From the NCBI GenBank assembly GCA_036399015.1, contig DASWNW010000038.1:122934-186933 (forward strand): a stretch of DNA of 64,000 nucleotides, written 5' to 3'. Below the pieces are notes generated by a model. It ran no database searches and was not told the DNA's origin. It worked only from the letters and a program-made list of their open reading frames with translations. The position numbers were made by a program, and so were the translations under genes. Numbering within the stretch: the first letter of the stretch is position 1; every line of letters starts with the position of its first letter. This DNA is from Thermoanaerobaculia bacterium. Its GTDB lineage: Bacteria; Acidobacteriota; Thermoanaerobaculia; Gp7-AA8. Below, in pieces: positions 2,044 to 50,520 of the stretch.

Positions 2044-2200
2044 AGCACCGTGGGGGTTTTCTCGGGGTTCCTCGGGTTCCTCGGGGTTCCTCGGGGTTCC
2101 TCGGGTTCCTCGGGGTTCCTCGGGGTTCCTCGGGGTTCCTCGGCGAATGGTGCTGGTCTACCCGAGGAACTCCGAGGAACTCCGAGGAACCCGAGGAACC
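2044..2200. repeat. Family-A hairpin element. About 10 tandem GGGTTCCTCG units, an 18-nt loop, then about 4 tandem CCGAGGAAC units.
   Basis: The units are directly visible. The left arm is the reverse complement of the right arm. It lies between the HK start (2026) and the stop of the upstream NTase gene (2202). Confidence 0.8.
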
Positions 2201-3727: not shown

Positions 3728-3815
3728 GTAAATTGTGGTCGGTTGTCGGTTGTCGGTTGTCCGCGGTGTCTCGCCTGGTCAAAGCTCCCCAGACAACTGA
3801 CAACTGACAACGCAA

Positions 3816-4997: not shown

Positions 4998-6019
4998 GCG
5001 TGCTGCAGCGACCCCTTCCTGACGTTCGCTACGTGGGCGATGAGGTCGAGGATCCGGTTCGAGTAGCCCCACTCGTTGTCGTACCACGCCAGCACCTTGT
5101 GCATCTGCGGCGTGACCGAGCGGGTGAAGGTGGTGTCGACGATCGAGGAGTTCGCGTTGTGGTTGAAGTCGATCGAGACGAGCTGCTCGTCCGAGTAGGC
5201 GAGGATGCCTTTCAGCTCGCCGTCGGCCGCCTCGCGCAGGACGCTGTTGATCTCGTCCACGTTCGTCGCCTTCTCGGTGTAGAAGGTGAGGTCGACGAGG
5301 GAGACGTTCGGTGTCGGCACGCGCACCGAGATGCCGTCGAACTTCCCCTTCAGCTCCGGCAGCACGAGCCCGACCGCCTGCGCGGCGCCGGTGCTGGTCG
5401 GGATCATCGACAGCGCCGCCGCACGCCCGCGGCGCAGGTCCTTGTGCGGCAGGTCGAGGATCTCCTGGTCGTTCGTGTACGAGTGGATCGTGGTCATGAT
5501 CCCCATCGTGATCCCGAAGCGCTGGTGCAGCACCTTGGCCACCGGCGCGAGGCAGTTCGTGGTGCACGAGGCGTTGGAGATGATCCGGTGCTTCGCCGGA
5601 TCGTACGAGTCCTCGTTGACGCCCATGCAGAACGTCGCGTCGGCGTCCTTGGAGGGGGCGGAGATGATCACCGTCTCGACGCTCTTCTTGAGGTGGCGCG
5701 AGGCCTTGTCCTTGGTCGTGAAGCGGCCGGACGATTCGACGACGATCTCGGCGCCGAGCTCGTCCCAGGGGATCTCGGCCGGGTCGGGGCTGGAGAAGAC
5801 GCGCAGCTCGTCGCCGTCGATGGAAATGCCGTTGTCGGTCGCCTTGACGTCGTTGGAGATGGTCTTGTGGACGGAGTCGTACTTCAGCAGGTACGCGAGC
5901 GTGGGGGGACCGGTCAGGTCGTTCACCGCCACGAAGTCGATGTCGAGTTTCTTCTCGAGCGCGGCCCGCAGAACGTTGCGGCCGATGCGCCCGAAACCAT
6001 TGATGCCAACCTTCACCAT
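4994..6019 (-). CDS. gap: Glyceraldehyde-3-phosphate dehydrogenase.
   Basis: MVKVGINGFGRIGR and the ASCTTNCLAP active-site motif are present. An RBS (caggagac) lies upstream of ATG 6019. The annotated 375-aa ORF has a spurious N-terminal extension. Confidence 0.9.
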   Translation of the reverse strand: MVKVGINGFGRIGRNVLRAALEKKLDIDFVAVNDLTGPPTLAYLLKYDSVHKTISNDVKATDNGISIDGDELRVFSSPDPAEIPWDELGAEIVVESSGRFTTKDKASRHLKKSVETVIISAPSKDADATFCMGVNEDSYDPAKHRIISNASCTTNCLAPVAKVLHQRFGITMGIMTTIHSYTNDQEILDLPHKDLRRGRAAALSMIPTSTGAAQAVGLVLPELKGKFDGISVRVPTPNVSLVDLTFYTEKATNVDEINSVLREAADGELKGILAYSDEQLVSIDFNHNANSSIVDTTFTRSVTPQMHKVLAWYDNEWGYSNRILDLIAHVANVRKGSLQHA

Positions 6020-7536: not shown

Positions 7537-8958
7537 CTGCTTCACCGCCCGCTCCACGCGTGTCTTCGTCGCCGCGTCGACGCCCGCGGGCGGACGCGCG
7601 TCGGCGAGCCTGATCGCCTGCGCCTGCATCGCCTGACGCACCGCCGGCGGCGCGGCGCGCAGGTTCCGCTCGAGCTCGCGCCCGAACACGAAAACGGCCA
7701 TCGCGCCGAAGACAGCGATCGACAGCAGCCCCGCCGCACGCGCCACCGCGTTGTTGATCCCCGAGGCGGCGCCGGAGTAGCGCTCGTCTTCGATCGAGGT
7801 CATGACGGTCGCGGTCAGCGGAGCGACGGTCACCGACATACCGATGCCGAGGACCAGCACGCCGGGGAAGAAGGTCGTCCAGTACGTCCCGCCGATCGAC
7901 GGCAGCGCCAGCAGCGCGAATCCGGCCGCGGCGATGAGCGGCCCGGCGATCAGCGGCAGCCGCGCGCCGATTCGATCCGCGAGCGCGCCGGTCCAGCGCG
8001 AGAGCAGCGACATCGTTGCCACGAACGGCAGGAACGCCGCGCCCGCGGCGGCGGGCGAGTAGTCCTGCACCTGGATGAGGTTGAACGGCAGCAGGAACGT
8101 CGCCGCGGAGAGCGCCGCGTAGAGGAGCAGTGTGAGCACGTTCGCCGCGGTGAAGGAGCGCGAGCGGAAGAGCGACAGCGGGACGATCGGATTCGCGGCG
8201 CGGCGCTGCACGAAGACGAACGCGATCAGCGCCGCCACTCCCGCGATCCCCACCACCGGCATGTGCTCGATGACCGCGTACGTCACCGCGCCGAGACCGA
8301 GGGTGATCAGCAGCGTGCCGAGCCAGTCGATGGAGCCGGCGTTCTCCCGCTTCGAAGCCGGCACGTGCCGCCACACCGCCCACAGCACCACCGCGGCGAT
8401 CGGCACGTTGATGTAGAAGACCGCGCGCCACGACCACGACTGCACCAGGAATCCGCCCAGGAGCGGCCCGGCGATGATGGCGAGCGACGTGAGCGCCGAC
8501 CATGTGCCGATGGCGCGGCCGCGCTCCTCGCGCGGGAAGGTCTCGTTGATGATGGCGAGGCTCCCGGGGACGAGCAGCGCCGCGCCGACGCCCTGCAGCG
8601 CTCGCGCGGCGATCAGCGAGAGCGGACCGGGGGCCGCGCCGCACGCGACCGAGGCGACGGCGAACGTGAGCACGCCGAAGGCGAAGACGCGCACGCGTCC
8701 CAGCCGGTCGCCGAGCGAGCCGCCGGCGAGGATGAGCGCGGAGAGGACCAGCAGGTACGAGTCGACGATCCACTGCGCGTCGTCGACGCCGGCGCGCAGC
8801 TCCGTCTGCATCACCGGCAGCGCGACGTTGATCACCGTCGTGTCGATGAACGCCATGGCCGATCCGAGGATCGTTGCCGCCAGCGTCCACCGTTGACGGG
8901 GCGTCGCCGGGTTCCTCGGCGTTCCTCGGAGTTCCTCGGCGACCGCGGTATCGGACAT
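7396..8958 (-). CDS. MFS transporter, DHA2/EmrB-like (14-TM drug:H+ antiporter family).
   Basis: The profile shows 14 TM helices. An MFS motif, LGDRLGRVRVF, is present. The start could instead be 9003. Either way, the first 15-30 codons are the translation of a family-A hairpin repeat. Confidence 0.75.
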   Translation of the reverse strand: MSDTAVAEELRGTPRNPATPRQRWTLAATILGSAMAFIDTTVINVALPVMQTELRAGVDDAQWIVDSYLLVLSALILAGGSLGDRLGRVRVFAFGVLTFAVASVACGAAPGPLSLIAARALQGVGAALLVPGSLAIINETFPREERGRAIGTWSALTSLAIIAGPLLGGFLVQSWSWRAVFYINVPIAAVVLWAVWRHVPASKRENAGSIDWLGTLLITLGLGAVTYAVIEHMPVVGIAGVAALIAFVFVQRRAANPIVPLSLFRSRSFTAANVLTLLLYAALSAATFLLPFNLIQVQDYSPAAAGAAFLPFVATMSLLSRWTGALADRIGARLPLIAGPLIAAAGFALLALPSIGGTYWTTFFPGVLVLGIGMSVTVAPLTATVMTSIEDERYSGAASGINNAVARAAGLLSIAVFGAMAVFVFGRELERNLRAAPPAVRQAMQAQAIRLADARPPAGVDAATKTRVERAVKQSFVSAFRVNVLTAALLAALAALGGAMVRRRDDHARGDGLQGEQHHR

Positions 8959-8996
8959 TCCCGAGGAACCCGAGGAACCCGAGGAACTCCGAGGAA
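8899..8996. repeat. Family-A hairpin element. It has 3 GTTCCTCGG units, a loop, then 4 CCGAGGAAC units.
   Basis: It uses the same unit as 2044-2200 and 32301-32406. It lies at the 5' end of the MFS gene and 10 bp from the stop of the M16 peptidase. Confidence 0.8.
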
Positions 8997-9006
8997 CCTT
9001 CATCGA

Positions 9007-10386
9007 TCAACTCACGGCGAGCATGTTTCCGTCGATGTCCAGCTCGTGCACCGGGAAGCCGAGCGATCCGAGCGGCTCGCGGATCTGCGACGCGTTGCCG
9101 ACGATCACCACCAGCACGCGGTCGGGGTCGAGGTACTTCTCGGCGACGCGGGTGATCTCGTCCTTCGACACCGCGGCGATGTTCTCGCGGTAGCGGTCGA
9201 AGTAGTCCTCCGGCAGGCCGTAGAGCTCCATGTCCACGAGGCGCCCCGCTAGGTCGGCCGCGGTCTGCACCGTGGCCGGGAACACGCCCATGAGGTAGCT
9301 CTTCACGTCGTCCAGCTCGCGGTCCTCGATGTCGCCGGTGCGGATGCGCCGCAGTTCGGACAGCATCTCGTTGACCGACTCGCGCGTCACCTCGTTGCGC
9401 ACCGGAGCGGCGATGACGAACGGGCCGGCCTGGCGGCGGAAGGCGAACTGCGACCGGGCGCCGTAGGTGTAGCCGTGGCGCTCGCGGAGATTGAGGTTGA
9501 TGCGCGAGTTGAAGACGCCGCCGAAGACGGCGTTCATGACCGCGAGCGGGAAGTAGTCCTCGCAGGAGCGCGGCACGCCGAGGTGGCCGACGCGGATTTC
9601 CGACTGCACGGCCTGCGGACGGTCGACGACGTAGATGCGCGACGCGTCGATCGGACGGGGCGCGACGGTCGGGCGCGGCGGCTCGGGGCCGGTCTGCCAG
9701 TCGGCGAGCGCGCGCGTCACCAGCTCGACCGCCGCCGCGGCGTCGATGTCGCCGGAGACAACCACCGAGCTGTGGTTCGGGATGTAGTGCTGGCGGTAGA
9801 ACGTCCGCACGTCGTCCGCCGTGATGCGGGCGACGCTCTCGGCGTTTCCGCCGACGGAGTTGCCGTACGCGCCGTTGCCGTAGAGCAGGCTGGCGAAACG
9901 CTTGCCGGCGATGGCGCCGGGATCGTTGCGCTGCTGGAGGATGTCGTTCAGCCGCTCGGCGCGGACCCGTTCCAGCCCGTCCTCCGGCAGCGTGGCGCGC
10001 GCGGTGACGTCGCCGAAGATCGACATGGCCGGCTCGCTGTTGCGACTGAGGACGTCGAAGGAGATGTAGGTCGCGTCCCAGTCCGCCCCCGTCCCCAGCG
10101 CGCCGCCCAGCAGCCCGACGTCCTCGGCGATCCGGATCGCGTCGCGCGAACCGGCGCCCTCGTCGAGCAGGTCGGCGACGAGCGACGCCAGCCCGGCGCT
10201 CTGCGCGGTGTCGTGGTCGGCGCCGGAGCGGATCAGCGCGCGCAGCGACACCAGCGGCGCGTTCCGGTTCTCCGTGACGAGCACGCGCAGCCCGTTGGGC
10301 AGCGTGGCGCGGGTGATGTGGGGAAAGTGATAGGGGCGCGGGGCGCTCGGCTGAGGGGCGGCGCTACGGTCGATTGTCGTGGTCAT
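9007..10386 (-). CDS. M16-family (pitrilysin/insulinase) peptidase subunit lacking the HxxEH zinc motif. It is a likely non-catalytic partner.
   Basis: 459 aa with the M16 fold pattern. No HxxEH motif was found by eye. It sits in tandem with an HxxEH-containing M16 gene. Confidence 0.8.
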   Translation of the reverse strand: MTTTIDRSAAPQPSAPRPYHFPHITRATLPNGLRVLVTENRNAPLVSLRALIRSGADHDTAQSAGLASLVADLLDEGAGSRDAIRIAEDVGLLGGALGTGADWDATYISFDVLSRNSEPAMSIFGDVTARATLPEDGLERVRAERLNDILQQRNDPGAIAGKRFASLLYGNGAYGNSVGGNAESVARITADDVRTFYRQHYIPNHSSVVVSGDIDAAAAVELVTRALADWQTGPEPPRPTVAPRPIDASRIYVVDRPQAVQSEIRVGHLGVPRSCEDYFPLAVMNAVFGGVFNSRINLNLRERHGYTYGARSQFAFRRQAGPFVIAAPVRNEVTRESVNEMLSELRRIRTGDIEDRELDDVKSYLMGVFPATVQTAADLAGRLVDMELYGLPEDYFDRYRENIAAVSKDEITRVAEKYLDPDRVLVVIVGNASQIREPLGSLGFPVHELDIDGNMLAVS

Positions 10387-10398
10387 TGCGCTCTCAAA

Positions 10399-10455
10399 CG
10401 AATGAAGAAGGGCGTCGCTCCCGATTCGAAATTCTTCATTCGAAATTCTTCATTC
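10399..10455. repeat. Family-B hairpin element. The arms are CGAATGAAGAA and TTCGAAATTCTTCATTCGAAATTCTTCATTC.
   Basis: A perfect inverted repeat is visible between the two M16 genes. It overlaps the last 2 bp of ORF 10454-11707. Confidence 0.75.
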
Positions 10456-11707
10456 AAGCTTCCGGTACGAACAGGCTCGTTACCCGGTTCTCCGGGATGA
10501 GGTACTTCCGCGCCACGTGGGCGAGGTCGTCGGCGGTGGCGTTGCGGTAGGGGTCGAGCCAGCGCTGCACGAGCGACGGGTCGTTGAAGTAGGTCGCCAT
10601 CATCCCGATCAGGTCCGCGCGTGCGTCGAAGGTCTCGAGCTGGTGCGCGTACTCCATCTCGGCGCGGTTCTTGGCGCGCGTCAGCTCGTCGTCGGTGATG
10701 CCTCCGACGCTGATGCGGGCGACCTCCTCGTCGATCGCCGACTCGAGCCTCTCGATGGCCACCCCTTCGCGCGCCGTCGCCTGCAGCAGCAGCAGCCCCG
10801 TCGCCTCGGTCGGCAGGACGTAGGTGGCGACGTCCTGCGCGATCTGCTGCTCGTGCACCAGCGCGCGGTCGAGGCGGCTGGCCTTGTCGGAGGCGAGGAC
10901 CGTCGTCAGCAGGTCGGCGTGCACCCAGTCCGTCTCCCCCATCTTCGGGAGGTGATAGAGACGGTAGATGCGGGGGAGCTGCACCGGCGACGCGAACGTC
11001 TCCCGCACCTCGTGACCGGCCGGCTTGCGCTGCAGGTCGAAGCCGGGGAACAAGCGGCCCGGCTCGAATTCGGAGAAGTAGTGGTCGACGAGCCGGCGCG
11101 CCTCGTCGGCCGCGAAGTCGCCGACGATGGTGAGCGTGCAGTTGTCGGGGCGGTACCAGGTGGCGAAGAACTCGCGGATGTCGTCGAGCGACGCCGCCTC
11201 GAGGTCCTCCATCGACCCGATGGTCGCCCAGTGGTACGAGTACTCGGGATTGAACGCGAGCCGGAGCAGGCGCTCGAACGCGGTGCCGTACGGCACGTTG
11301 TCGTAGCGCTGGCGCCGCTCCTCCTTGACCACCTCGCGCTGGATGTCGAGCTTCTCCTGCGTCAGGGCGGGAAGGAAGAAGCCCATCCGGTCGGACTCGA
11401 GCCAGAGGCCGAGGGCGAGGTAGTTGGAGGGGAGCGTCTCGAAGTAGTTCGTGCGGTCGAAGAAGGTGGTGCCGTTGAGGACCCCGCCCACCGACTGCAC
11501 GTAGCGGAAGTGCTCGTTGTTGCCGACGTGCTGCGAGCCGGAGAAGAGCATGTGCTCGAACAGGTGCGCGAAGCCCGTGCGCCCCGGCCGCTCGTTCTTC
11601 GACCCGACGTGGTACCAGAGGTTGATCGCCACGAGCGGCGCCGAGTGGTCCTCGTTGAGGACGACCCGCAGACCATTGTCGAGGCGGTATTCGGTGAGGT
11701 TGAGCAT
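10454..11707 (-). CDS. M16-family zinc peptidase, catalytic subunit (HLFEHMLF = HxxEH).
   Basis: 417 aa. The inverted zinc-binding motif HxxEH is present near the N-terminus. Confidence 0.85.
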   Translation of the reverse strand: MLNLTEYRLDNGLRVVLNEDHSAPLVAINLWYHVGSKNERPGRTGFAHLFEHMLFSGSQHVGNNEHFRYVQSVGGVLNGTTFFDRTNYFETLPSNYLALGLWLESDRMGFFLPALTQEKLDIQREVVKEERRQRYDNVPYGTAFERLLRLAFNPEYSYHWATIGSMEDLEAASLDDIREFFATWYRPDNCTLTIVGDFAADEARRLVDHYFSEFEPGRLFPGFDLQRKPAGHEVRETFASPVQLPRIYRLYHLPKMGETDWVHADLLTTVLASDKASRLDRALVHEQQIAQDVATYVLPTEATGLLLLQATAREGVAIERLESAIDEEVARISVGGITDDELTRAKNRAEMEYAHQLETFDARADLIGMMATYFNDPSLVQRWLDPYRNATADDLAHVARKYLIPENRVTSLFVPEA

Positions 11708-11734
11708 CGGAGGGGGAGTTCTATCACGACCACA

Positions 11735-11819
11735 CGAATGAAGAATTTCGAATTTCGAATGAAGAATGGGCCCCCGCCGAACGCAACTTCTTCATTCTTC
11801 ATTCGAAATTCTTCATTCG
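11735..11819. repeat. Family-B hairpin element. The arms are CGAATGAAGAATTTCGAATTTCGAATGAAGAA and its reverse complement.
   Basis: It has 32-bp arms and a 21-nt GC-rich loop. It lies in the divergent region between the M16 peptidase start (11707) and the kinase start (11849). Confidence 0.8.
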
Positions 11820-11848
11820 CACGCCTTCTGCCTTTATCCTTTCGCCCC

Positions 11849-12490
11849 GTGAGCTCGCTTCCCTTCCGCCACATCGCGATCGAGGGGCCGATCGGGGTCG
11901 GCAAGACTTCGCTGACCTCGCTGCTGGCGAAGCGGTTCCGGGGGACGCGCGTGCTCGAGGACGTCGACAACCCCTTCCTCGACGACTTCTACAAGGACAA
12001 GCGGGGGGCGGCGTTCCGGACCGAGCTCTTCTTCCTCCTCTCCCGCCACGATCAGCAGCGGCAGGTCGCGCAGCGGGACCTCTTCACGGAGCTCATCCTC
12101 GCCGACTACACCTTCGCCAAGAGCAAGATCTTCGCGTACCTCACCCTCGACGACTCCGAGCTCATGATCTACAACCGGCTCTACGACCTGCTGTGGGAGC
12201 AGGTGCCGAAGCCGGAGCTGGTGATTTACCTCCAGGGGAACCTTGATACACTCCTCAAACGCATAAAAAAGCGTGGGCGTGCCTACGAAAAGGCAATCTC
12301 GTCATCGTATTTGCAGGAGCTCAGTGAGGCGTACTCGCACTACTTTTACCGGTACGACGAGACGCCGCTGCTGGTCGTGAACACGAACGAGATCGATTTC
12401 GTGAACACGCCCGAGCATTTCGAACAGCTCGTGGAGCAGGTTCGGAACGCTCAAAAGGGAACTCAGTACTACGTACCGCTTGGATCCTGA
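11849..12490 (+). CDS. Deoxynucleoside kinase (dAK/dGK family).
   Basis: The P-loop IAIEGPIGVGKTS is present, together with family-typical downstream motifs. The start is assigned to GTG 11849. The upstream in-frame ATGs lie inside the hairpin repeat. Confidence 0.7.
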   Translation: MSSLPFRHIAIEGPIGVGKTSLTSLLAKRFRGTRVLEDVDNPFLDDFYKDKRGAAFRTELFFLLSRHDQQRQVAQRDLFTELILADYTFAKSKIFAYLTLDDSELMIYNRLYDLLWEQVPKPELVIYLQGNLDTLLKRIKKRGRAYEKAISSSYLQELSEAYSHYFYRYDETPLLVVNTNEIDFVNTPEHFEQLVEQVRNAQKGTQYYVPLGS

Positions 12491-12516
12491 GTGAACGGAC
12501 CGGGACGGGGATCGTA

Positions 12517-12598
12517 GGGAACGCGGAACGCTGAACACGGAACGATGAACCGCCCCAAGCGAGAGCTCATCGTTCACCGTTCATCCTTCATCGTTCAC
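12517..12598. repeat. Family-C hairpin element. It has tandem GAACG(A/C)TGAAC units, a loop, then tandem GTTCATCGTTC units.
   Basis: The inverted repeat is visible, with an imperfect inner unit. It sits 30 bp upstream of the panB start. Confidence 0.7.
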
Positions 12599-12629
12599 TC
12601 CGCCCTCTGCTCGTGCCACGGAGGAGTCA

Positions 12630-18567: not shown

Positions 18568-18644
18568 CGGGGCATAGCTCAGCCTGGTAGAGCGCACGGT
18601 TCGGGACCGTGAGGTCGGAGGTTCAAGTCCTCTTGCCCCGACCA
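18568..18644 (+). tRNA. tRNA-Pro (anticodon CGG).
   Basis: A cloverleaf can be folded by eye. The acceptor stem is CGGGGCA/TGCCCCG. The anticodon loop is TTCGGGA, the T-loop is GGTTCAAGTCC and the 3' end is CCA. Confidence 0.9.
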
Positions 18645-22564: not shown

Positions 22565-23010
22565 GTCACCCGACGATCCATTGATCGTCACCCACGTTCA
22601 CCCCATCGCAGGTGATGATCCGCGCATCGCCGCGCGACGATCCGCGCGCGCGTTCCCGACGATCCGGTGGACATCTGCTGATGTCCATCGCCAGGAACCC
22701 GGCGATCGCGTCATCGCGCCGGACGATCCTCCGGTCGTCACGGACGTCGAGCGGATCGTCGCCGGTCGATCCACCCCATCGCCGCCCCTCGATCCACTCA
22801 TCGTCGACCATGTGCTCCCACATCGCCGCCGGCCCCGGTTCGACGACACTCACGATCCGCCGATCGTCGGTTCGCCGCGCCTCGATCGTCGCCTCTCGAT
22901 GCGATGGAGGTGAGGTGATGTCCGCAGGATCGCCGGGCGACCTCGACTTGGGGCGAGGTGGCGATGTGCGGATCGTCGACCGGCGCGACACCGTCGGCAC
23001 GCGACCATCA
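22565..23010. promoter_or_regulatory. Non-coding array of ACGATC-N3-5-GATCGT inverted-repeat motifs. It holds about 17 GATC sites in about 450 bp.
   Basis: Counted by eye: GATC is roughly 10-fold over-represented for this base composition. About 6 imperfect palindromic copies are present, such as CGACGATCCATTGATCGTCA. Confidence 0.5.
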
Positions 23011-23025
23011 CGATAAGATCGCGGA

Positions 23026-23586
23026 GTGATCGAAGCCCTACGGATCGTGGCGCTCCTCGGGTTAGCGCTCACCGCGTGCAGCTCGCTGCCGCCGAATGCG
23101 CTTCGTCCATCAACCCCAGGCGCTCTCCAGCGCGAGTTTCAACGCTCCCACGGACCGGCAACAGAAGCCGAGTACGCGCAGTGTGAGACACCATACGAGA
23201 ACACGACTGGCGTAACCGAAATCGCCATCGAGAGAACGTCCTGCTACGGCTACTGCCCGACCTACACCCTCCAGCTGTTCAGCGATGGCCGCGTTGCGTA
23301 CGTCGGTCAGGCTTCCGTCAGATTCATCGAGCCGCGAAGCGGGAAGCTGGATGAGTACTTGTTCACGAAGCTCGCACGGACGGCGGTTGGAATCGGATTC
23401 TTCGAGTTGCAGGACCGATATACGTGTGCGGTGACCGACAACCCGACTGTCTACGTCGCCGTAGTCCGGAACGGAACGCGAAAGGTCATCGAACACTACG
23501 CGCCCGAATGGACCGGCCCGGCCGCTCTCCGTCTGTTTGAAGAGGCCATCGACAACGTAGAGCCGTACATCGAGTGGGTGAGGTGA
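23026..23586 (+). CDS. Lipoprotein (DUF6438-like), lower GC.
   Basis: A signal peptide with a lipobox (LALTAC) is present. Conserved cysteines occur at ...SCYGYCPTY. Confidence 0.6.
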   Translation: MIEALRIVALLGLALTACSSLPPNALRPSTPGALQREFQRSHGPATEAEYAQCETPYENTTGVTEIAIERTSCYGYCPTYTLQLFSDGRVAYVGQASVRFIEPRSGKLDEYLFTKLARTAVGIGFFELQDRYTCAVTDNPTVYVAVVRNGTRKVIEHYAPEWTGPAALRLFEEAIDNVEPYIEWVR

Positions 23587-32300: not shown

Positions 32301-32406
32301 GGGTTCCTCGGAGTTCCTCGGTTCCTCGGAGTTCCTCGGGGCCGCCGCCGAGCTCGCAGCACGCGCCGAGGAACTCCGAGGAACCCCGAGGAACTCCCGA
32401 GGAACC
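32301..32406. repeat. Family-A hairpin element (GTTCCTCGG units, 26-nt loop, CCGAGGAAC units).
   Basis: It lies in the divergent region between the HK start (32273) and the mazG ATG (32411). The right arm ends 4 bp before the mazG ATG. Confidence 0.8.
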
Positions 32407-32410
32407 TACA

Positions 32411-33202
32411 ATGCGCCCCATGTCGAAACGCACCTTCGATGAGCTCGTAAAACTCATGACGCGATTGCGCGCCCCCGGCGGCTGTCCCTGGGACCGCAAG
32501 CAGACGCTTCCGGACCTGAAGGCGTACGTCATCGAGGAGGCCTACGAGGTCGTCGACGCCATCGACCAGGACGACCGGCGCGCGCTGGCGGAGGAGCTCG
32601 GCGATTTCCTGCTGCAGGCGGTGTTCCTCGCCGAGATCACGCGCGAAGAGGGGACGTTCGACATCTACGACTCCATCACCGCCATCCACGACAAGCTGGT
32701 GCGCCGCCACCCGCACGTCTTCGGCGACGTCGAAGCGAACGACGCGGAACAGGTCCTGGTGAACTGGGAGAAGCTGAAGCAGGACGAGCGGAAGGCGGAG
32801 AACAAGAGCGTGCTCTCGGGCGTGCCGCAGTCGATGCCGGCGCTGCTGAAGGCGTCGCGGCTCACCGAAAAGGCGGCGCGTGTCGGATTCGACTGGCGCC
32901 GCACCGAGGACGTCTTCGACAAGATCGACGAAGAACTGGCCGAGCTGCGGGAGGCGGTCGCGAACGGCGACACCGCGCACATCCATGAGGAGATCGGCGA
33001 CCTGCTCTTCACGGTGGCGAACATCGCGCGCAAGGTGAACGTGAACCCCGAAGAGGCGCTGCAGTCGACGAACCGCAAATTCATGAGCCGGTTCGGGTCG
33101 ATGGAGTCGCGGGTGCGCGAGCGGGGGCAGAATCTCGACCAGCTCGAGCTCGAGGAGATGGACAAGCTGTGGGACGAGGCAAAAGCGGCGGAACGCGCCT
33201 GA
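32411..33202 (+). CDS. mazG: Nucleoside triphosphate pyrophosphohydrolase MazG.
   Basis: The motifs LRAPGGCPWDRKQT and EExYEV and the tandem MazG EEIGDLLF motif are present. Confidence 0.85.
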   Translation: MRPMSKRTFDELVKLMTRLRAPGGCPWDRKQTLPDLKAYVIEEAYEVVDAIDQDDRRALAEELGDFLLQAVFLAEITREEGTFDIYDSITAIHDKLVRRHPHVFGDVEANDAEQVLVNWEKLKQDERKAENKSVLSGVPQSMPALLKASRLTEKAARVGFDWRRTEDVFDKIDEELAELREAVANGDTAHIHEEIGDLLFTVANIARKVNVNPEEALQSTNRKFMSRFGSMESRVRERGQNLDQLELEEMDKLWDEAKAAERA

Positions 33203-34144: not shown

Positions 34145-34269
34145 GCGTGGGATTCTAAGCCGGAGTGGCCGGTTGCTCGTTGCTGGTTGCTGGTTTCCTG
34201 CGAGGCAGTGCCTCCGGCGGAAGCCGTCGAGTCACGAGCAACCAGCAACGGCAATAGAATCCACCCACC

Positions 34270-35934
<1,665 letters not shown>

Positions 35935-36064
35935 TGGAGCGGTGCCCGCTCTCGGGCACCGGGGTCGGCGGCCGAAGCGGCCGCCGCTCCACTCCAGAAA
36001 GCACCACCGCCCGGGTAGGGACAACACCTCGGCAGTACACTCCTCCTCACAGGAGACCGAGACG

Positions 36065-40241: not shown

Positions 40242-43200
40242 TCAGCTCAACCGCATCCGGGTGACCGCGGCCGCCGCGAGCAGGCCCGCCAGGATCATCA
40301 GGCCCCACTCCGACGCCGTCGGGACCGCCGCGACGTGCGCCGAGGCGACGACCACCGACGCGCTGGAGGAGTTGTTGGACGTCACCGCCTCCGACTCGTC
40401 GCTGTCGACGGTGGCGACGTTCATCATCGTGCCCACGCCCATGGCGCGGCCGGTCATCGTGATCGTGATCGAAGCGCCGTTCAGCATCGTGCCGAGCGCG
40501 CACGTCACCGTCGTGGTTCCGCTGCACGTGCCCAGCGTCGACGTGACGCCGGTCAACTGGAAGTTCGCCGGCAGCGGGTCGTTGAGCACCACGTTCGTCG
40601 CGGTGTCGGGGCCGTTGTTGGTGACGACCAGCGTGAAGTTGAACGTGTCGCCGACCAGCATGCTGGTGAGGGAGGCCGACTTCACGATGCCCAGGTCGAC
40701 CACCGGTCCGCCGGCGTCGCCGCCGTTGCCGTCGTCGTCGGTGTTGTCGTCGACGTCGGGGTCGGGCTCGGTCGCAGTGACCGTGGCCACGTTGTCGAAC
40801 GCGCCGGCGGCGTCGATCGTCGCCGTGACCGTTATGGTGGTGCTCGCACCGACGGCAAGGCTGGCGATGGTGCACGGCAGCGCGGCGCAGCCGCTGCCGC
40901 TCACGCCGGTGATGGTGAGGTTCGTCGGCGTGTCGGTCACCTGGATGTTCGTCGCCGGGGACGGTCCGGCGTTCGCGACCACGAGCGTGTAAGTGAGCTC
41001 CTGGCCGAGGCCGAACGGTCCGGGGGTGACGAGGGTCTTGACCACCGAGACGTCGGCCGAGGGGCCGGTGAAGCCGCCGTTGTCGTCCTCGTCGTCGTTG
41101 TCCTCGCCGTCGGGGTCGGGCTCGGTGGCGGTGGCCGCGGCCACGTTGTCGAACGCGCCGGCGGCGTCGATGGTCGCCGTCACGGTGATGGTGGTGCTCG
41201 CTCCCATGGCGAGGCTGGCGATGGTGCACGGCAGCGCGGCGCAGCCGCTGCCGCTCACGCCGGTGATGGTGAGGTTCGTCGGCGTGTCGGTCACCTGGAT
41301 GTTCGTCGCCGCCGACGGTCCGGCGTTCGCGACCACGAGCGTGTACTGGATCGATTGACCGATGCTGAAGGGGCCGACGGTGATCAGCGTCTTCACCAGC
41401 GAAACGTCCGCCGAGGGGCCGGCGATGTCGCCGTCGTCATCGGTGTTGTCGTCCACGTCGGGGTCAGGCTCGGTCGCCGTCGCGGTCGCGGTGTTGCTGA
41501 ACGCGCCGGCGGCGTTGACTGTCGCCGTCACGTTGATGGTGGCGTTCGCGCCCATGGCGATGCTGGGGATGGTGCACGGCAGCGCCGCACAGCCGCTGCC
41601 GCTCACGCCGGTGATGGTCATGTTCGCCGGCGTGTCTGTCACGGTGACGCTCGTGGCGGTTGAGGGGCCGGCGTTCGCCACGATGAGGGTGTACTGGATC
41701 GCCTGACCGATGCTGAACGGGCCGGCGGTGATCAGTGTCTTCACCAGTGAGACATCCGCCGAGGGGCCGGCGATGTCGCCGTCGTCATCGGTGTTGTCGT
41801 CCACGTCGGGGTCAGGCTCGTTCGCCGTCGCGGTCGCGGTGTTGCTGAACGCGCCGGCGGCGTTGACGGTCGCCGTCACGTTGACGGTGGCGCTCGCGCC
41901 CATGGCGATGCTGGGGATGGTGCACGGCAGCGCGGCGCAGCCGCTGCCGCTGACGGCGGTGACGGTCATGTTCGACGGCGTGTCCGTCACCTCGACCGAC
42001 GTGGCCGTGGAGGGGCCGGCGTTCGCCACGACGAGCGTGTACTGGATCGACTGACCGACGCTGAAGGGGCCGGCGGTGATCAGCGTCTTCACCAGCGAAA
42101 CGTCCGCGGACGGACCAGCGATGTCGCCGTCGTCATCGGTGTTGTCGTCCACGTCGGGGTCAGGCTCGGTCGCCGTCGCGGTCGCGGTGTTGCTGAACGC
42201 GCCGGCGGCGTTGAGCGTCGCCGTGACGTTGATGGTCGCGTTCGCGCCCATGGCGATGCTGGGGATGGTGCACGGCAGCGCGGCACAGCCGCTGCCGCTG
42301 ACGCTGGTGATGGTCATGTTCGACGGCGTGTCCGTCACCTCGACCTTGGTGGCGACGGAGGGGCCGGCGTTGGCCACTACGAGCGTGTACTGGATCGACT
42401 GGCCGGGGATGAAGGGGCCGGCAGTGATCAGCGTCTTCACCAGCGAGACGTCGGCCGAGGGGCCGGCGATGTCGCCGTCGTCATCGGTGTTGTCGTCCAC
42501 GTCGGGGTCAGGCTCGTCCGCGGTCGCGGTGGCGGTGTTGCTGAACGCGCCAGCGGCGTTGACCGTCGCCGTGACGTTGATGGTGGCGCTCGCGCCCATG
42601 GCGATGCTGGGGATGGTGCACGGCAGCGCGGCGCAGCCGCTGCCGCTGACGGCGGTGATGGTCATGTTCGCCGGCACGTCGGTCACGGCGACGCTCGTGG
42701 CCGTGGAGGGGCCGGCGTTCGCCATGACGAGGGTGTACTGGATCGCCTGACCGATGCTGAACGGGCCGGCGGTGATCAGTGTCTTCACCAGTGAGACATC
42801 CGCCGAGGGGCCGGCGATGTCGCCGTCATCATCGGTGTTGTCGTCCACGTCAGGGTCAGGCTCGTCGGCTGTCGCGGTGGCGGTGTTGCTGAACGCGCCG
42901 GCGGCGTTGACGGTCGCCGTCACGTTGATGGTGGCGCTCGCTCCCATGGCGATGCTGGGGATGGTGCAGGGCAGCGCGGCGCAGCCGCTGCCGCTCACGC
43001 TGGTGATGGTCATGTTCGCCGGCACGTCCGTCACCTCGACCGACGTGGCCGTGGAGGGGCCGGCGTTCGACACGACGAGCGTGTACTGAATCGACTGACC
43101 GACGGTGAAGGGGGCGGCGGTGATGAGCGTCTTCACCAGCGAGACGTCGGCCGAGGGGCCGGCGATGCCGCCGTCGTCATCGGTGTTGTCGTCCACGTCG

Positions 43201-46200
43201 GGGTCAGGCTCGTCGGCGGTCGCGGTGGCGGTGTTGCTGAACGCGCCGGCGGCGTCGATCGTTGCCGTCACGTTGATGGTGGTGCTTGCTCCCATGGCAA
43301 GGCTGGGGATGGTGCACGGCAGCGCGGCACAGCCGCTGCCGCTGACGCTCGTGATGGTGAGGTTCGTGTCGGTGTCGGTCACCTCGACGTTCGTCGCGGT
43401 GGACAGGCCGGCGTTCGAGACGACGATCGTGAAGTTCACCGTGTCGCCGGTGGTGAACGGTCCGGCGGTGGTCAGCGTCTTCACGACCGAGACGTCGGCG
43501 AACGGACCGGCGATGCCGGTGTCGTCGTCGGTGTTGTTGTCAACGTCGGGATCCGGCTCGTCGGCAGTGGCCGTGGCGGTGTTGCCGAAAACGCCGTCCG
43601 CGTCGATGGTGCCGGTGACGGTGATGGTCGTATCCGCGCCGGCGGCGATGCTCGCGATGGTGCAAGGCAAGGCGGCGCAGCCGCTGCCGCTGACGGTGGC
43701 GATCGTGAAGTTCGACGGGGTGTCCGTCACCTCCACGTTCGTCGCGGACGACAGCCCGTCATTCGCCACCAGGATCGAGAACGTCACTTCGTCGCCGACG
43801 CTGTACGGGCCGGCCGTGGTGAGCGTCTTCACGACCGAGACGTCCGCAAACGGGCCGGCGATGCCGGTGTCGTCGTCGGTGTTGTCGTCCGGGTCGGGAT
43901 CCGGCTCGTCCGCCGTGGCCGTCGCGGAGTTCTCGAAGAGACCGTCCGCGCCGATGGTGCCGGTGACGGTGACGGTCGTATTCGCATTGACGGCGAGCGT
44001 TGGGATCGTGCAGGGCAAGGCCGTGCAGCCGCTGCCGGCGACGCTGGTGATGGTGAAGTTGGCCGGCGTATCCGTCACGTCGATCGAAGTGGCCGGCGAC
44101 GGACCGGCGTTCGCGACCAGGATCGAGAAGCTGACCGTGTCGCCGACGCTGTGCGGCCCGGCGGTGGTGAGCGTCTTCACGACCGAGACGTCGGCCGAGG
44201 GTCCGGCGATGTCGCCGTCGTCGTCGGTGTTGTTGCCGGGCGTGGGGTCGGGCTGGTCGCCGTCGGCCGTGGCCTCGTTTTCAAACGCGCCGGCCGCGTC
44301 GATGGTGGCGGTGACGGTGATGGTCGTGTCGGCGTCGTCCGACAGCGCCGCGATCGTGCAGGGCAGTGCGGCGCAGCCGCTGCCACTCACGCCGGTAATG
44401 GTCAGGTTCGTGTCGACGTCCGTCACCTGGATGTTGGTGGCCGTGGACGGGCCGTCGTTCCTGACCACGATGTTGAAAGTCACCGTGTCGCCCACGGTGT
44501 AGGGGCCGGCGGTGGTCAGGGTCTTCGTCAGCGAGACGTCAGCCGAGACCGCGGTGTCCCCGTCATCGTCGGTGTTGTTGCCGGGCGTCGGGTCCGGCTG
44601 GTCGCCGTCGGCCGTGGCCTCGTTCTCGAACGGTCCGGCCGCGTCGATGGTCGCGGTGACGCTGATGGTGGTCTCGGTGTCGTCCGAGAGCGCCGCGATC
44701 GTGCAGGGCAACGCCGCGCAGCCGCTGCCGCTCACGCCGGTGATGGTCAGGTTCGTGTCGACGTCCGTCACCTGGATGTTCGTGGCCGTGGACGGGCCGT
44801 CGTTCCGGACCACGATATCGAAGGTCACCGTGTCGCCCGCTTCGAAGGGACCGGTGGTGGTGAGGGTCTTGGTGAGGGACACGTCGGCCGAGTCGGCGGT
44901 GCCGCCGTCGTCGTCGGTGTTGTTGCCAGGGGTCGGGTCCGGCTGGTCGCCGTCGGCCGTGGCCTCGTTTTCAAACGCACCGGCCGCGTCGATGGTGGCG
45001 GTGACGCTGATCGTGGTCTCGGTGTCGTCCGACAGCGCCGCGATCGTGCAGGGCAGTGCCGCGCAGCCGCTGCCGCTGACGCCGGTGATGGTGAGGTTCG
45101 TGTCGACGTCGGTCACCTGGATGTTGGTGGCCGTGGACGGGCCGTCGTTCCTGACCACGATGTTGAAAGTCACCGTGTCGCCCGCCTCGAAGGGACCGGT
45201 GGTGGTGAGCGTCTTGGTGAGGGACACGTCGGCCGAGTCGGCGGTGTCGCCGTCGTCGTCGGTGTTGTTGCCGGGGGTCGGGTCCGGCTGGTCGCCGTCG
45301 GCGGTGGCTTCGTTCGAGAAGGCTCCCGCCGCGTCGATCGTCGCCGTGACGCTGATGGTGGTCTCGGTGTCGTCCGACAGCGCCGCGATCGTGCAGGGCA
45401 GTGCGGCGCAGCCGCTGCCACTCACGCCGGTGATGGTCAGGTTCGTATCGACGTCCGTCACCTGGATGTTGGTGGCCGTGGACGGGCCGTCGTTCCTGAC
45501 CACGATGTCGAAGGTCACCGTGTCGCCCACGGTGTAGGGGCCGGCGGTGGTCAGGGTCTTCGTCAGCGAGACGTCAGCCGAGACCGCGGTGTCCCCGTCG
45601 TCGTCGGTGTTGTTGCCGGGCGTGGGGTCCGGCTGGTCGCCGTCGGCCGTGGCTTCATTCGAGAAGGCTCCGGCCGCGTCGATCGTCGCGGTGACGGTGA
45701 TGGTCGTCTCGGCGTCGTCTGCCAGCGCCGCGATCGTGCAGGGCAGTGCCGCGCAGCCGCTGCCGCTCACGCCGGTGATGGTCAGGTTCGTGTCGACGTC
45801 GGTCACCTGAACGTTCGTGGCCGTGGACGGGCCGTCGTTTCTGACCACGATGTTGAAAGTCACCGTGTCGCCCGCCTCGAAGGGACCGGTGGTGGTGAGC
45901 GTCTTGGTGAGGGACACGTCGGCCGAGTCGGCGGTGTCGCCGTCGTCGTCGGTGTTGTTGCCGGGCGTCGGGTCCGGCTGGTCGCCGTCGGCCGTGGCTT
46001 CATTCGAGAAGGCTCCGGCCGCGTCGATGGTGGCGGTGACGGTGATGGTGGTCTCGGCGTCGTCCGACAGCGCCGCGATCGTGCAGGGCAGTGCCGCGCA
46101 GCCGCTGCCACTCACGCCGGTAATGGTCAGGTTCGTGTCGACGTCCGTCACCTGGATGTTGGTGGCCGTGGACGGGCCGTCGTTCCTGACCACGATGTTG

Positions 46201-50351: not shown

Positions 50352-50520
50352 TAAGTGTCCTCGCTGGAGTTATTTACGTACTCAATTGGACCGGTACGTG
50401 GCCTGATCGTAGCCGGACGGGACAAAAAGCGTGAGAGAAATTCGTCAGAAGTACGCGAAATCCCACTCACGACCGATGACTTTCAACGCCCTCCGCCGTC
50501 CATGAATGAGGAGGAAAGAC

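What the first reader, a model, noticed from the sequence alone, without database searches (positions are those of the whole stretch)
10399..11819. Family-B hairpin elements (GAATGAAGAA/TTCGAAATTC units) bracketing the catalytic M16 peptidase gene
There are two copies of a second element with the same design (tandem unit arm, about 16-21 nt GC loop, complementary arm) but an unrelated unit sequence. One is at 10399-10455, between the two M16 peptidase genes and touching the stop of the catalytic one. The other is at 11735-11819, between that gene's start and the divergent deoxynucleoside-kinase gene. A family-A copy lies at the far end of the peptidase pair (8899-8996). The M16 pair is therefore flanked and separated by three such hairpins. 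The family-B copy at 11735-11819 provides in-frame ATGs (MKNFEFRMKNG). These would be mis-called as the kinase start.
Basis: seen in the sequence. Interest (0 to 1): 0.55.

Follow-up and report, generated by a model that had tools for sequence, protein, structure and literature searches.

The report
Hypervariable heptamer-repeat hairpins at gene boundaries
The two "family-B hairpins" around the M16 peptidase gene are real, but they belong to a widespread, fast-changing class of intergenic palindromes built from 7-base repeats in Acidobacteriota and Gemmatimonadota, and are not a control device specific to this gene.

Summary
The sequence facts hold. B2 (11735-11819) is a strong hairpin: 32-nt arms, 91% complementary, RNA z about -7 to -9. 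B1 (10399-10455) shares a 24-nt exact string with B2 but folds only into a 10-bp stem.

The true unit is a heptamer (GAATGAA/GAATTTC). The window, from a Thermoanaerobaculia MAG, holds nine hairpins of this design with at least five unrelated unit sequences.

A multi-register detector finds such hairpins in relatives:
- 21 in 387 kb of Acidobacteriota loci
- 10 in 728 kb of Gemmatimonadota loci
- 0 in 209 kb of other phyla, and 0 in shuffles
- 7-nt register in 23 of 31

At orthologous sites the hairpins are present or absent among close relatives, and the units change while the two arms stay complementary. A strain with a 98.8% identical kinase gene carries different units at the B2 site. There is no sense-strand G·U signature, no U-tract terminator, no Rfam match and no clear target-site duplication.

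Best reading: these are DNA-level palindromic simple-sequence repeats. They are remodelled by 7-nt slippage and templated arm-to-arm or neighbour copying, and tolerated only at gene boundaries. Their effects here are side effects: a stop codon for M16A, uncoupling of M16A from M16B, and spurious ATGs.

Closest known: the Xanthomonas GGGAATC inverted heptamer arrays and cyanobacterial STRRs. This is a new variant of a known kind, of moderate interest.

The parts
11735..11819 (.). B2: heptamer-repeat palindrome. The 5' arm is 11735-11766 (GAATGAA GAATTTC GAATTTC GAATGAA GAA), the loop is 11767-11787 and the 3' arm is 11788-11819. It lies between the divergent M16A and dNK kinase starts.
   Evidence: sequence; I6 (32-nt arms, 91% complementary); (z -7.1 and -9.0); orthologous site filled in L001, L002, L203, L204, L205, L207, L212, L213 and empty in L202, L210.
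10399..10455 (.). B1: asymmetric, partly decayed or incomplete copy of the same family. The short arm is 10399-10409, the loop 10410-10424, and the long arm 10425-10455 (2 x 14 nt). It lies between the M16A stop and the M16B start.
   Evidence: period 14, 2.3 copies, 100%; 24-nt identity with B2; only a 10-bp stem; site empty (ATGA, TGATG or TAAATG) in 9 of 11 close relatives.
11822..11832 (.). Remnant of GAAGGCA-type units (rc GGCAGAAGGCG). This is the unit that fills the B2 site in L204 and L001. It has no complementary partner on the other side of B2.
   Evidence: alignment of the B2 site.
11833..11839 (+). Conserved TTTATCC motif (-10-like), which ends 9 nt before the kinase GTG. It is the left boundary of the B2 site in all relatives.
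   Evidence: GGATAAA conserved in every orthologous locus. Its function as a promoter is inferred, not shown; one search finds no consensus sigma-70 promoter.
11718..11728 (-). Conserved CGTGATAGAAC motif (extended -10-like), 10 nt before the M16A ATG. It is the right boundary of the B2 site.
   Evidence: CGTGATA[GA]AAC in all relatives; only 5 nt from GGATAAA in L210. Promoter role is inferred.
10454..11707 (-). M16A: catalytic M16 peptidase (HxxEH in FAHLFEHM). Its stop codon TGA is supplied by the first unit of B1.
9007..10386 (-). M16B: non-catalytic M16 partner. It is separated from M16A by B1, whereas relatives have a stop/start overlap.
11849..12490 (+). Deoxynucleoside kinase, true start GTG 11849. 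The in-frame ATGs at 11738 and 11759 inside B2 are spurious.
   Evidence: 213 aa in the window source, L202 and L204; the dNK domain starts at residue 9.
8899..8998 (.). A2: same design with 9-10-nt units GTTCCTCGG / CCGAGGAAC, between the M16B stop and the MFS transporter start.
   Evidence: z -6.1.
2054..2200 (.). A1: family-A hairpin (about 8.5 against 4 units) between the NTP-transferase stop and the GAF histidine-kinase start.
   Evidence: Empty site in L203 (TGACGGTGCTACCATC) and in L202.
3737..3815 (.). D: heptamer hairpin GTCGGTT / GACAACT between the pgk stop and the CYTH start.
   Evidence: z -5.3. Same type in L203, GAACGAT type in L003, empty in L002 and L202.
12513..12602 (.). C: heptamer hairpin (GAACGNN / NNCGTTC units, arms 75% complementary) between the kinase stop and the panB start.
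   Evidence: I8; z -3.0. The L207 strain has the same arms but a different apex. Single-unit mini-hairpins occupy this site in L211 and L212.
32301..32406 (.). A3: family-A hairpin between the divergent PAS/GAF histidine kinase and MazG genes.
34171..34255 (.). E: heptamer hairpin GGTTGCT / AGCAACC between the divergent nth and hutU genes. It is flanked by inverted TAGAAT boxes (34150-34262).

Best explanation
B1 and B2 are two members of a lineage-wide class of intergenic palindromic simple-sequence repeats. Each has a tandem array of 7-nt units, a short unrelated GC-rich spacer, and the complementary array.

Proposed mechanism (inferred, not shown):
1. Arrays gain and lose units in 7-nt steps by replication slippage.
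2. The two arms are kept complementary, and units are homogenised, by templated copying between arms (quasi-palindrome template switching or gene conversion).
3. Copying also occurs between nearby copies. This is why B1 carries the same units as B2 1.3 kb away, and why each genome's pair matches itself rather than its orthologue.
4. The apex is repeatedly rebuilt.
5. Copies persist only where insertion is tolerated: right after stop codons, between a stop and the next start, or between back-to-back promoter-proximal motifs.

The effects on the M16 locus are by-products:
- The purine-rich arm (GAATGAA) carries TGA and ATG in all three frames. It therefore provides M16A's stop codon and creates spurious in-frame ATGs upstream of the kinase.
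- B1 splits an ancestrally overlapping M16A/M16B stop-start pair.
- If transcribed, B1 adds an intercistronic stem-loop without a U-tract.
- B2 places an 85-bp cruciform-prone palindrome between two divergent promoter-proximal motifs.
For: 1. Class, not a singleton.
- The window holds nine hairpins of the same design with at least 5 unit sequences.
- The strict detector finds 21 in 387 kb of Acidobacteriota loci, 10 in 728 kb of Gemmatimonadota loci, 0 in 209 kb of other phyla and 0 in shuffles. The 7-nt register dominates in 23 of 31.

2. Gain, loss and turnover.
- The B2 site is empty in L202 (17-nt spacer) and in L210 (5-nt spacer).
- Elsewhere it is filled with GAATGAA/GAATTTC (window), GAAGGCA (L204, L001), GAACGCA (L205, L207, L213), GAATGTT (L203, L002) or CAGCTNN (L212).
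- Unit types do not follow the M16A tree.
- Strain L207 has a kinase 98.8% identical to the window's, yet has different B2 units and a different apex in C.

3. Arms co-vary. In the six genomes compared at this site, a genome's own 5' arm scores highest against its own 3' arm in every case.

4. In-situ size change. Site C runs from single-unit mini-hairpins (L211, L212) to arrays of 4-5 units. At D, one arm of the window copy is homogenised to GTTGTCA without compensation on the other arm.

5. Local copying.
- B1 and B2 share a 24-mer.
- In L204 and L001, B1 and B2 both use GAAGGCA.
- In L204, panBCD is bracketed by two GAACGAT/GAAGGAT hairpins.

6. DNA-level rather than sense-RNA-level signature. 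In 22 co-directional contexts there are 33 sense against 50 antisense G·U pairs. The sense strand is the more stable in 9 of 22 (Wilcoxon p = 0.31).

7. No terminator tails and no consensus promoters. No Rfam match.

8. Decay. B1 and C in the window are degraded hairpins.

9. Permissive site. In L211 the B2 site instead holds an IS4 element inside a REP-like palindrome.

10. Precedent. Heptamers are the commonest long SSR in bacteria and are attributed to polymerase slippage. Xanthomonas has 70-75 inverted pairs of GGGAATC arrays (PMC4692102; PMC4679880 citing Mrazek 2007).
Against: - Slippage and template switching are inferred from patterns. No read-level or experimental data were available.
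- The same two-unit combination (GAATTTC + GAATGAA) recurs at unrelated loci in other Thermoanaerobaculia contigs. A mobile family explains this more easily than independent in-situ growth.
- L204 and L001 share both units and loop at B1, although closer relatives lack B1. This needs recombination or several precise losses.
- Hairpins are enriched between divergent genes over convergent genes: 11 against 2, with 18 tandem. A purely neutral insertion model does not predict this, so promoter-side targeting or function is possible.
- Gene orientation came from a crude GC3 ORF caller.
- Persistence of a hairpin at the B2 site in 8 of 11 relatives could reflect selection.
Confidence: 0.55

Rival explanations
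1. The hairpins are non-autonomous mobile elements (MITE- or REPIN-like). A transposase encoded elsewhere, for example a RAYT/IS200-IS605-type enzyme that recognises hairpins, moves them in trans. Unit families would then be element families, and B1 a local hop from B2.
For: - The same unit combination occurs at unrelated loci and in different Thermoanaerobaculia lineages: L095, L120, L124, L142, L181.
- Family A has three dispersed copies in the window.
- Filled and empty sites have sharp boundaries, with a possible 2-3-bp duplication at A1 (CG/CGG) and an ATGA(T) duplication at the L002 site near window position 5000.
- Same-family copies cluster locally.
Against: - Loops are unrelated between copies of one family, so there is no conserved element body.
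- There are many unit families per genome.
- Ends are not fixed, and copy size varies in 7-nt steps down to a single unit.
- No target-site duplication is seen at B2 when it is compared with the empty sites in L202 and L210.
- No GTAG/CGTC tag is part of the elements.
- No transposase was seen next to any copy. The only one found, the IS4 in L211, has its own different inverted ends.
Confidence: 0.17
2. The hairpins are selected RNA stem-loops. They would act as intercistronic or 3'-end structures that stabilise upstream mRNA, attenuate read-through, or set relative expression of neighbouring genes, as REP/BIME elements do in enterobacteria.
For: - Five of the nine window copies start 0-22 nt after a stop codon of a co-directional upstream gene: A1, D, A2, B1, C.
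- They fold very stably.
- The arms remain complementary despite unit turnover.
- Most Xanthomonas heptamer repeats are reported to be transcribed (PMC4692102).
Against: - There is no sense-strand G·U bias or stability bias.
- There are no U-tracts and no Rfam family.
- Three of the nine window copies (B2, A3, E) lie between divergent starts, directly upstream of -10-like motifs, where they would not be transcribed from those promoters.
- Presence or absence varies among close relatives, and copies decay.
- They are rare between convergent genes.
Confidence: 0.15
3. The hairpins are promoter-region tuning devices acting on DNA. They could be heptamer arrays bound by a protein. Alternatively they could be cruciforms that absorb the negative supercoiling generated between divergent promoters, with 7-nt copy-number changes acting as a contingency switch for expression.
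For: - The hairpins abut conserved -10-like motifs: B2 on both sides, A1 (TGCTACCAT), A3 (TACAAT, TGCTAGCAT) and E (TAGAAT on both sides).
- Divergent contexts outnumber convergent ones, 11 against 2.
- 7-bp promoter repeats tune hmw1A expression in Haemophilus (PMC8262952).
- Deleting heptamer repeats changes the response of the recO promoter in Nostoc constructs (bioRxiv 10.1101/2022.06.06.494920).
Against: - Unit sequences are too diverse for one sequence-specific binder.
- The B2 site works with only a 5-nt or 17-nt spacer in L210 and L202, so no upstream element is required.
- Many copies are not near promoters, for example B1 and D.
- There are no expression data.
Confidence: 0.1

Closest known systems
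Xanthomonas GGGAATC (and Nostoc GGGGA(C/T)T) heptameric intergenic repeats, including inverted pairs (Rehm et al. 2015, PMC4692102)
   Same: - Tandem 7-nt units that are strongly intergenic and close to ORF ends.
- In 70-75 cases per Xanthomonas genome, two arrays lie on opposite strands close together and could form stem-loops.
- Length and sequence vary extensively between close species.
- No function has been found.
   Different: - There is one G-rich, G-quadruplex-forming unit per genome. Here at least five unrelated units occur in 64 kb, mostly not G-rich.
- Repeats are under-represented between divergent ORFs there. Here divergent sites are common and convergent sites rare.
- The phyla differ.
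- Here almost every heptamer array is paired into a hairpin.
Cyanobacterial STRR / contiguous heptamer repeats (three Calothrix heptanucleotides cited in PMC4692102; Nostoc TTTTGAA repeats, bioRxiv 10.1101/2022.06.06.494920)
   Same: - Dispersed tandem heptamers near start codons and promoters.
- Several unit families within one genome.
- Function unresolved for decades.
   Different: - They are described mainly as direct arrays, not as complementary paired arms.
- The unit sequences and the taxa differ.
TAACTGA direct repeats of marine Beggiatoaceae, some Cyanobacteria and Bacteroidetes (MacGregor 2015, PMC4679880)
   Same: - Heptamer arrays lie immediately upstream of start codons.
- Stop codons in the unit limit overlap with ORF ends.
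- Indels occur in 7-nt steps between strains.
- It is an open question there whether the arrays are mobile or grow in situ.
   Different: - There is a single unit sequence, with orientation-specific direct repeats and only one inverted case in 170.
- They are proposed to be binding sites in single-stranded RNA, whereas the elements here are double-armed hairpins.
REP / BIME / REPIN elements (PMC3733652, PMC3116915)
   Same: - Abundant extragenic palindromes at gene boundaries.
- Presence or absence varies between relatives.
- They form hairpins in mRNA or DNA.
- Some are doublets that form long hairpins.
   Different: - REPs have a conserved 20-40-nt sequence with GTAG/CGTC tags and a cognate RAYT, lack internal tandem periodicity, and favour 3' ends and convergent regions.
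- The window also carries a separate REP-like family (GTGGAGCGG...CCGCTCCAC at 35933-35993), which is distinct from the heptamer hairpins.
Quasi-palindrome template-switch mutagenesis and palindrome instability (own knowledge: Ripley 1982; work from the Lovett and Leach laboratories)
   Same: It gives a known route by which one arm of an imperfect inverted repeat is corrected against the other, and by which palindrome centres are broken and rebuilt. This matches the co-varying arms and hypervariable loops seen here.
   Different: It is a mutational process described in E. coli, not an element family. Its operation here is inferred only.

Membership tests
Heptameric intergenic SSRs arranged as inverted pairs (Xanthomonas type, PMC4692102) | Tandem repeats with a 7-nt unit | tested here: met
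   TRF gives period 7 or 14 at B1, B2, C, D and E. Register spacing is 7 in 23 of 31 hairpins. Family A is an exception, with 9-10-nt units.
Heptameric intergenic SSRs arranged as inverted pairs (Xanthomonas type, PMC4692102) | Two arrays on opposite strands in close proximity, able to form a stem-loop | tested here: met
Heptameric intergenic SSRs arranged as inverted pairs (Xanthomonas type, PMC4692102) | G-rich unit (GGGAATC / GGGGAYT) able to form G-quadruplexes | tested here: not met
   The units are GAATGAA, GAATTTC, GAACGAT, GTTGTCN, GGTTGCT and GTTCCTCGG. None has G-tracts.
Heptameric intergenic SSRs arranged as inverted pairs (Xanthomonas type, PMC4692102) | Strong bias to intergenic DNA next to ORF ends | tested here: met
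   All nine window copies are intergenic and lie 0-50 nt from a start or stop codon.
REP / REPIN | Conserved 20-40-nt palindromic sequence shared by many copies, with a GTAG or CGTC tag | tested here: not met
   Only the repeat units are shared. Loops and lengths differ among copies. No tag belongs to the elements: the GTAG next to D is the conserved pgk stop region and is also present at empty sites.
REP / REPIN | Cognate RAYT transposase in the genome | not testable with these tools
   Only a 64-kb window and flanks of fetched loci were available.
MITE | Fixed terminal inverted repeats, a conserved internal sequence and a target-site duplication | tested here: inconclusive
   - Internal sequences are not conserved.
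- A possible 2-3-bp duplication occurs at A1, and an ATGA(T) duplication at the L002 site near window position 5000.
- No duplication is seen at B2.
Intrinsic (Rho-independent) terminator | GC-rich stem followed by a U-tract on the transcribed strand | tested here: not met
   The scan finds no terminator-like site at any hairpin between 8700 and 12800. The flanks read TTTGAG, CCCCCACGG and ACAATTT.
Any curated RNA family (Rfam 15) | Match to a covariance model | tested here: not met
   (gathering threshold: only tRNA-Pro). (E <= 1: only a chance miRNA hit inside the M16A coding region).
Phase-variable contingency locus (SSR in a promoter) | Unit-number polymorphism within a population that switches expression | not testable with these tools
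   Only one near-identical strain fragment (L207) was found, and it differs in unit type rather than only in number. There are no expression data.

The most novel reading that the evidence does not exclude
The hairpins are products of a dedicated machinery that has not been described. Candidates are a heptad-reading nucleic-acid-binding or copying activity shared by Acidobacteriota and Gemmatimonadota, perhaps related to whatever generates the Xanthomonas and cyanobacterial heptamer arrays. Alternatively they are a transposase-independent, self-copying palindromic repeat that seeds new copies at nearby gene boundaries by templated synthesis. On this reading the promoter-side bias and the same-family bracketing of transcription units (M16A here and in L204 and L001; panBCD in L204) would reflect function, such as insulation of neighbouring transcription units.
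Probability: 0.2. Interest if true: 0.75.

Novelty: new variant of a known kind. Interest (0 to 1): 0.5.

Why it matters
Heptamers are the most over-represented long simple repeats in bacteria, and cyanobacterial STRRs have been known since 1990. Neither their origin nor their role is settled.

This lineage offers an unusually informative case:
- Many unrelated unit sequences share one architecture within one genome.
- Orthologous sites can be compared in filled, empty, single-unit and replaced states across closely related metagenome lineages.
- Turnover is visible at about 1-2% nucleotide divergence.

This makes slippage plus templated copying, mobility, and function testable against each other.

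There are also practical consequences. The elements supply stop codons, break translational coupling, create in-frame ATGs that extend gene calls (L203 kinase, 239 aa against 213 aa), and coincide with short-read contig ends (L207, L209).

Tried and rejected
- First detector. Exact periodic arrays plus an exact reverse-complement k-mer were too strict and missed most elements. A k=9 cluster version was too noisy, giving 15-22 hits in shuffles. It was replaced by the multi-register seed detector.
- Rfam at gathering and E <= 1 thresholds: nothing relevant.
- Consensus promoter and terminator scan: no sites at the hairpins.
- Sense-strand RNA signature (G·U pairs, MFE asymmetry): none.
- Strain-level variants from exact-protein look-ups. 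M16A and CYTH returned only identical sequence. Only the kinase gave a 98.8% strain fragment.
- M16A C-terminal length (417 against 419-420 aa) as a proxy for B1 occupancy across 120 homologues. This was rejected: four 417-aa alleles (L210-L213) have no hairpin, only TGATG or TAAATG junctions.
- Microhomology (ATGAAGA at the M16B start against the GAATGAA unit) as the seed for B1. It is suggestive for L203/L205-type junctions but not demonstrable, because the window lineage may derive from a TGATG/TAAATG junction.
- A shared target motif or target-site duplication across insertion sites: none was consistent.
- Literature searches for heptamer hairpins in Acidobacteria or Gemmatimonadetes found no description.
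- The collections of phages, plasmids and E. coli genomes, structure prediction and fold search were not used, as they are not relevant to a non-coding repeat.
Full report
**The observation**

- B2 (11735-11819) has 32-nt arms that are 91% complementary around a 21-nt GC-rich loop.
- As RNA, B2 folds to -47.6 kcal/mol on the - strand and -41.3 on the + strand. The z-scores are -7.1 and -9.0, and none of 200 shuffles folds as well.
- B1 (10399-10455) is asymmetric. One GAATGAAGAA unit faces two 14-nt double units across a 15-nt loop. It forms only a 10-bp stem (z -1.4 and -2.0), so as a hairpin alone it is unremarkable.
- B1 is nevertheless clearly related to B2. The two share an exact 24-mer, with 0 expected by chance. 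All eight exact GAATGAAGAA hits in the window lie in B1 or B2.
- The basic unit is a heptamer (GAATGAA, GAATTTC), not 10 or 14 nt.
- The M16A stop codon (10454-10456) overlaps the last unit of B1. M16B starts at 10386, M16A at 11707, and the kinase at GTG 11849.

**The same design elsewhere in the window**

The window holds nine hairpins built as a tandem-unit arm, a GC-rich loop and a complementary tandem arm:

| Family | Units | Copies in the window |
|---|---|---|
| A | GTTCCTCGG / CCGAGGAAC | 2054-2200, 8899-8998, 32301-32406 |
| B | GAATGAA, GAATTTC | B1 and B2 |
| C | GAACGNN | 12513-12602 |
| D | GTCGGTT / GACAACT | 3737-3815 |
| E | GGTTGCT / AGCAACC | 34171-34255 |

All nine are intergenic. 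Public gene calls on an identical contig (L081) and Pfam give their contexts.

- A1, D, A2, B1 and C lie between co-directional genes. They start 0-22 nt after the upstream stop codon.
- B2, A3 and E lie between divergent starts.

Rfam finds nothing. A consensus scan finds neither sigma-70 promoters nor U-tract terminators at these sites.

**Organism and spread**

- The M16A protein is 100% identical to a "Thermoanaerobaculia bacterium" MAG protein.
- The nearest genome loci are Acidobacteriota/Thermoanaerobaculia MAGs.
- A detector that requires inverted seeds in at least three registers found 21 hairpins in 387 kb of Acidobacteriota loci and 10 in 728 kb of Gemmatimonadota loci.
- It found none in 209 kb from other phyla and none in shuffled sequence.
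- The dominant register is 7 nt in 23 of 31.
- Among GC-rich contigs, L095, L120, L124, L142 and L181 carry two-armed hairpins made of the same two units (GAATTTC outside, GAATGAA inside). They sit at unrelated loci and each has a different loop.
- L124 is also Thermoanaerobaculia.

**Orthologous sites**

The relatives are L202-L205 and L210-L213, at 84-95% amino-acid identity.

B2 site:
- It is bounded in every genome by two conserved motifs: GGATAAA (reverse complement TTTATCC, which ends 9 nt before the kinase start) and CGTGATA[GA]AAC (10 nt before the M16A ATG).
- The site is empty in L210 (5-nt spacer) and L202 (17-nt spacer).
- In L211 it holds an IS4 element inside a REP-like palindrome.
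- Elsewhere it holds a hairpin of GAAGGCA units (L204, L001), GAACGCA/GAATGAA units (L205, L207, L213), GAATGTT units (L203, L002), CAGCTNN units (L212), or GAATGAA/GAATTTC units (window).
- The window also keeps a one-sided remnant of GAAGGCA units at 11822-11832.
- Unit types do not follow the M16A tree.
- In the six genomes compared, a genome's own 5' arm scores highest against its own 3' arm in every case.

B1 site:
- It is filled only in the window, L204 and L001.
- In nine other close relatives M16A and M16B overlap or abut (ATGA, TGATG, TAAATG).
- Each filled B1 uses the units of its own B2.
- L204 and L001 share even the loop at B1.

Sites C, D and A1:
- They show the same mix of empty, filled and replaced states.
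- At C, L211 and L212 have single-unit mini-hairpins where the other genomes with a filled site have 4-5 units per arm.

Other cases:
- In L204 the panBCD operon is bracketed by two GAACGAT/GAAGGAT hairpins.
- The strain fragment L207 has a kinase 98.8% identical to the window's. It carries GAACGCA-type units at B2 and a different apex in C.

**What this says about mechanism**

Several patterns fit simple-sequence-repeat dynamics acting on DNA, with templated copying between arms and between neighbouring copies:
- size changes in 7-nt steps at fixed sites
- within-arm homogenisation (D in the window: GTTGTCA three times against GACAACC, an A·C mismatch in every unit)
- co-variation of arms
- hypervariable apices
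- same-family neighbours
- decayed copies (B1 and C in the window)

A sense-RNA constraint would tolerate G·U on the transcribed strand. In 22 co-directional contexts there are 33 sense against 50 antisense G·U pairs. The sense strand is the more stable in only 9 of 22 (p = 0.31).

Among 31 hairpins classifiable with a crude ORF caller, 18 are in tandem, 11 in divergent and 2 in convergent contexts. This argues against a terminator role. It is also not what a purely neutral insertion model predicts, so promoter-side targeting or function stays open.

Mobility in trans is not excluded, because one unit combination recurs at unrelated loci. Against it, loops are unrelated between copies, ends are not fixed, target-site duplications are inconsistent, and no transposase is associated with any copy.

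**Consequences at the M16 locus (direct from sequence)**

- The purine-rich arm GAATGAA contains TGA and ATG. Since 7 is not a multiple of 3, both appear in all three frames within three units.
- This explains why M16A's stop codon lies in B1. It also explains why B2 offers in-frame ATGs to the kinase.
- The public call for this contig is correct at 213 aa. The L203 kinase is over-extended to 239 aa, into its hairpin.
- B1 separates two genes that overlap or abut in most relatives.
- Two Logan contigs end inside hairpins (L207 in B2, L209 in A1). This is consistent with assembly breaks at these repeats.

**Comparison with what is known**

- Rehm et al. (PMC4692102) describe GGGAATC heptamer arrays in Xanthomonas. 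In 70-75 cases they are paired on opposite strands. They vary strongly between species and have no known function. Those authors also note that heptamers are the most over-represented long simple repeats, a fact attributed to polymerase slippage.
- MacGregor (PMC4679880) describes TAACTGA direct arrays next to start codons, with 7-nt indels between strains.
- Nostoc heptamer arrays lie near promoters (bioRxiv 10.1101/2022.06.06.494920).
- Five literature searches found no description of heptamer hairpins in Acidobacteriota or Gemmatimonadota.
- The present elements differ in four ways. They have many unrelated, non-G-rich units per genome. Their arrays are almost always paired. Their context bias runs the opposite way. 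Their turnover is documented at very small divergence.

I therefore rate them a new variant of a known kind.

**Verdict**

- The finding is real.
- The specific reading, a hairpin trio organising the M16 operon, is not supported.
- The elements belong to a genome-wide and phylum-wide class of hypervariable palindromic heptamer repeats.
- The most likely mechanism is DNA-level slippage plus templated copying (confidence 0.55).
- The rivals are a mobile-element model (0.17), a selected RNA stem-loop model (0.15) and a promoter or supercoiling device model (0.10).
- Interest is moderate (0.5).

Noticed in passing
window 35933-35993; L001 2761-2831; L211 about 8490-8540 and 9930-9990: A separate REP-like palindrome family with conserved ends, GTGGAGCGG...CCGCTCCAC. 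In the window it sits right after the hutU stop. In L211 a copy at the B2 site has an IS4-family element inserted inside it. GTGGAGCGG occurs 7 times in the window against 1.7 expected.
   Followed up: partly
window 40242-50369 (- strand): A giant ORF of about 3376 aa that contains 18 tandem copies of a 348-nt (116-aa) repeat at 85% identity. It is probably a repetitive surface or adhesin-type protein.
   Followed up: no
window 22571-23049: About 480 nt dense in short direct and inverted repeats built on CGACGATCC / GATCGTCG / TCGATCCAC motifs, including a 23-nt tandem unit. There is no Rfam hit, and the coding status is unclear.
   Followed up: no
L001 18545-18977 (orthologous to the window A1 site): A 21-nt (3 x 7) minisatellite of about 20 copies (GATTTGATGGACCATGGTGTT) fills the intergenic region. 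It is flanked by short complementary arrays (CCTCCAAG/CCTCCTGG ... GGAGGCTGG), like a hairpin whose centre has expanded.
   Followed up: partly
window 11718-11728, 11833-11839, about 2030-2045, 32405-32420, 34150-34160 and 34252-34262: Conserved -10-like motifs (TGATAGAAC, TTTATCC, TGCTACCAT, TACAAT, TAGAAT) lie 7-12 nt upstream of start codons that have no Shine-Dalgarno sequence. This suggests that many genes here are leaderless or nearly so. Other genes, such as panB and gap, do have GGAGG-type sites.
   Followed up: partly
L203 8462-9181 and L210 9314-10063: Public gene calls extend the deoxynucleoside kinase to 239 and 249 aa, against 213 aa elsewhere. In L203 the extension runs into the B2-site hairpin.
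   Followed up: partly
L207 position 1 and L209 end (window B2 and A1): Short-read (Logan) contigs start or end inside the hairpin arms, which suggests these repeats fragment assemblies.
   Followed up: no
L005 9780-9975 and 8366-8586: Several different pyrimidine-rich heptamer arrays lie in series (CTCTGGC, TGACCTN, CTCGCCT). The complementary GGCGAGA-type array is about 1.4 kb away, on the other side of an extra stretch of DNA. This may be a hairpin split by an insertion.
   Followed up: no
window 18568-18644: tRNA-Pro (CGG), the only Rfam or ARAGORN hit in the window.
   Followed up: yes
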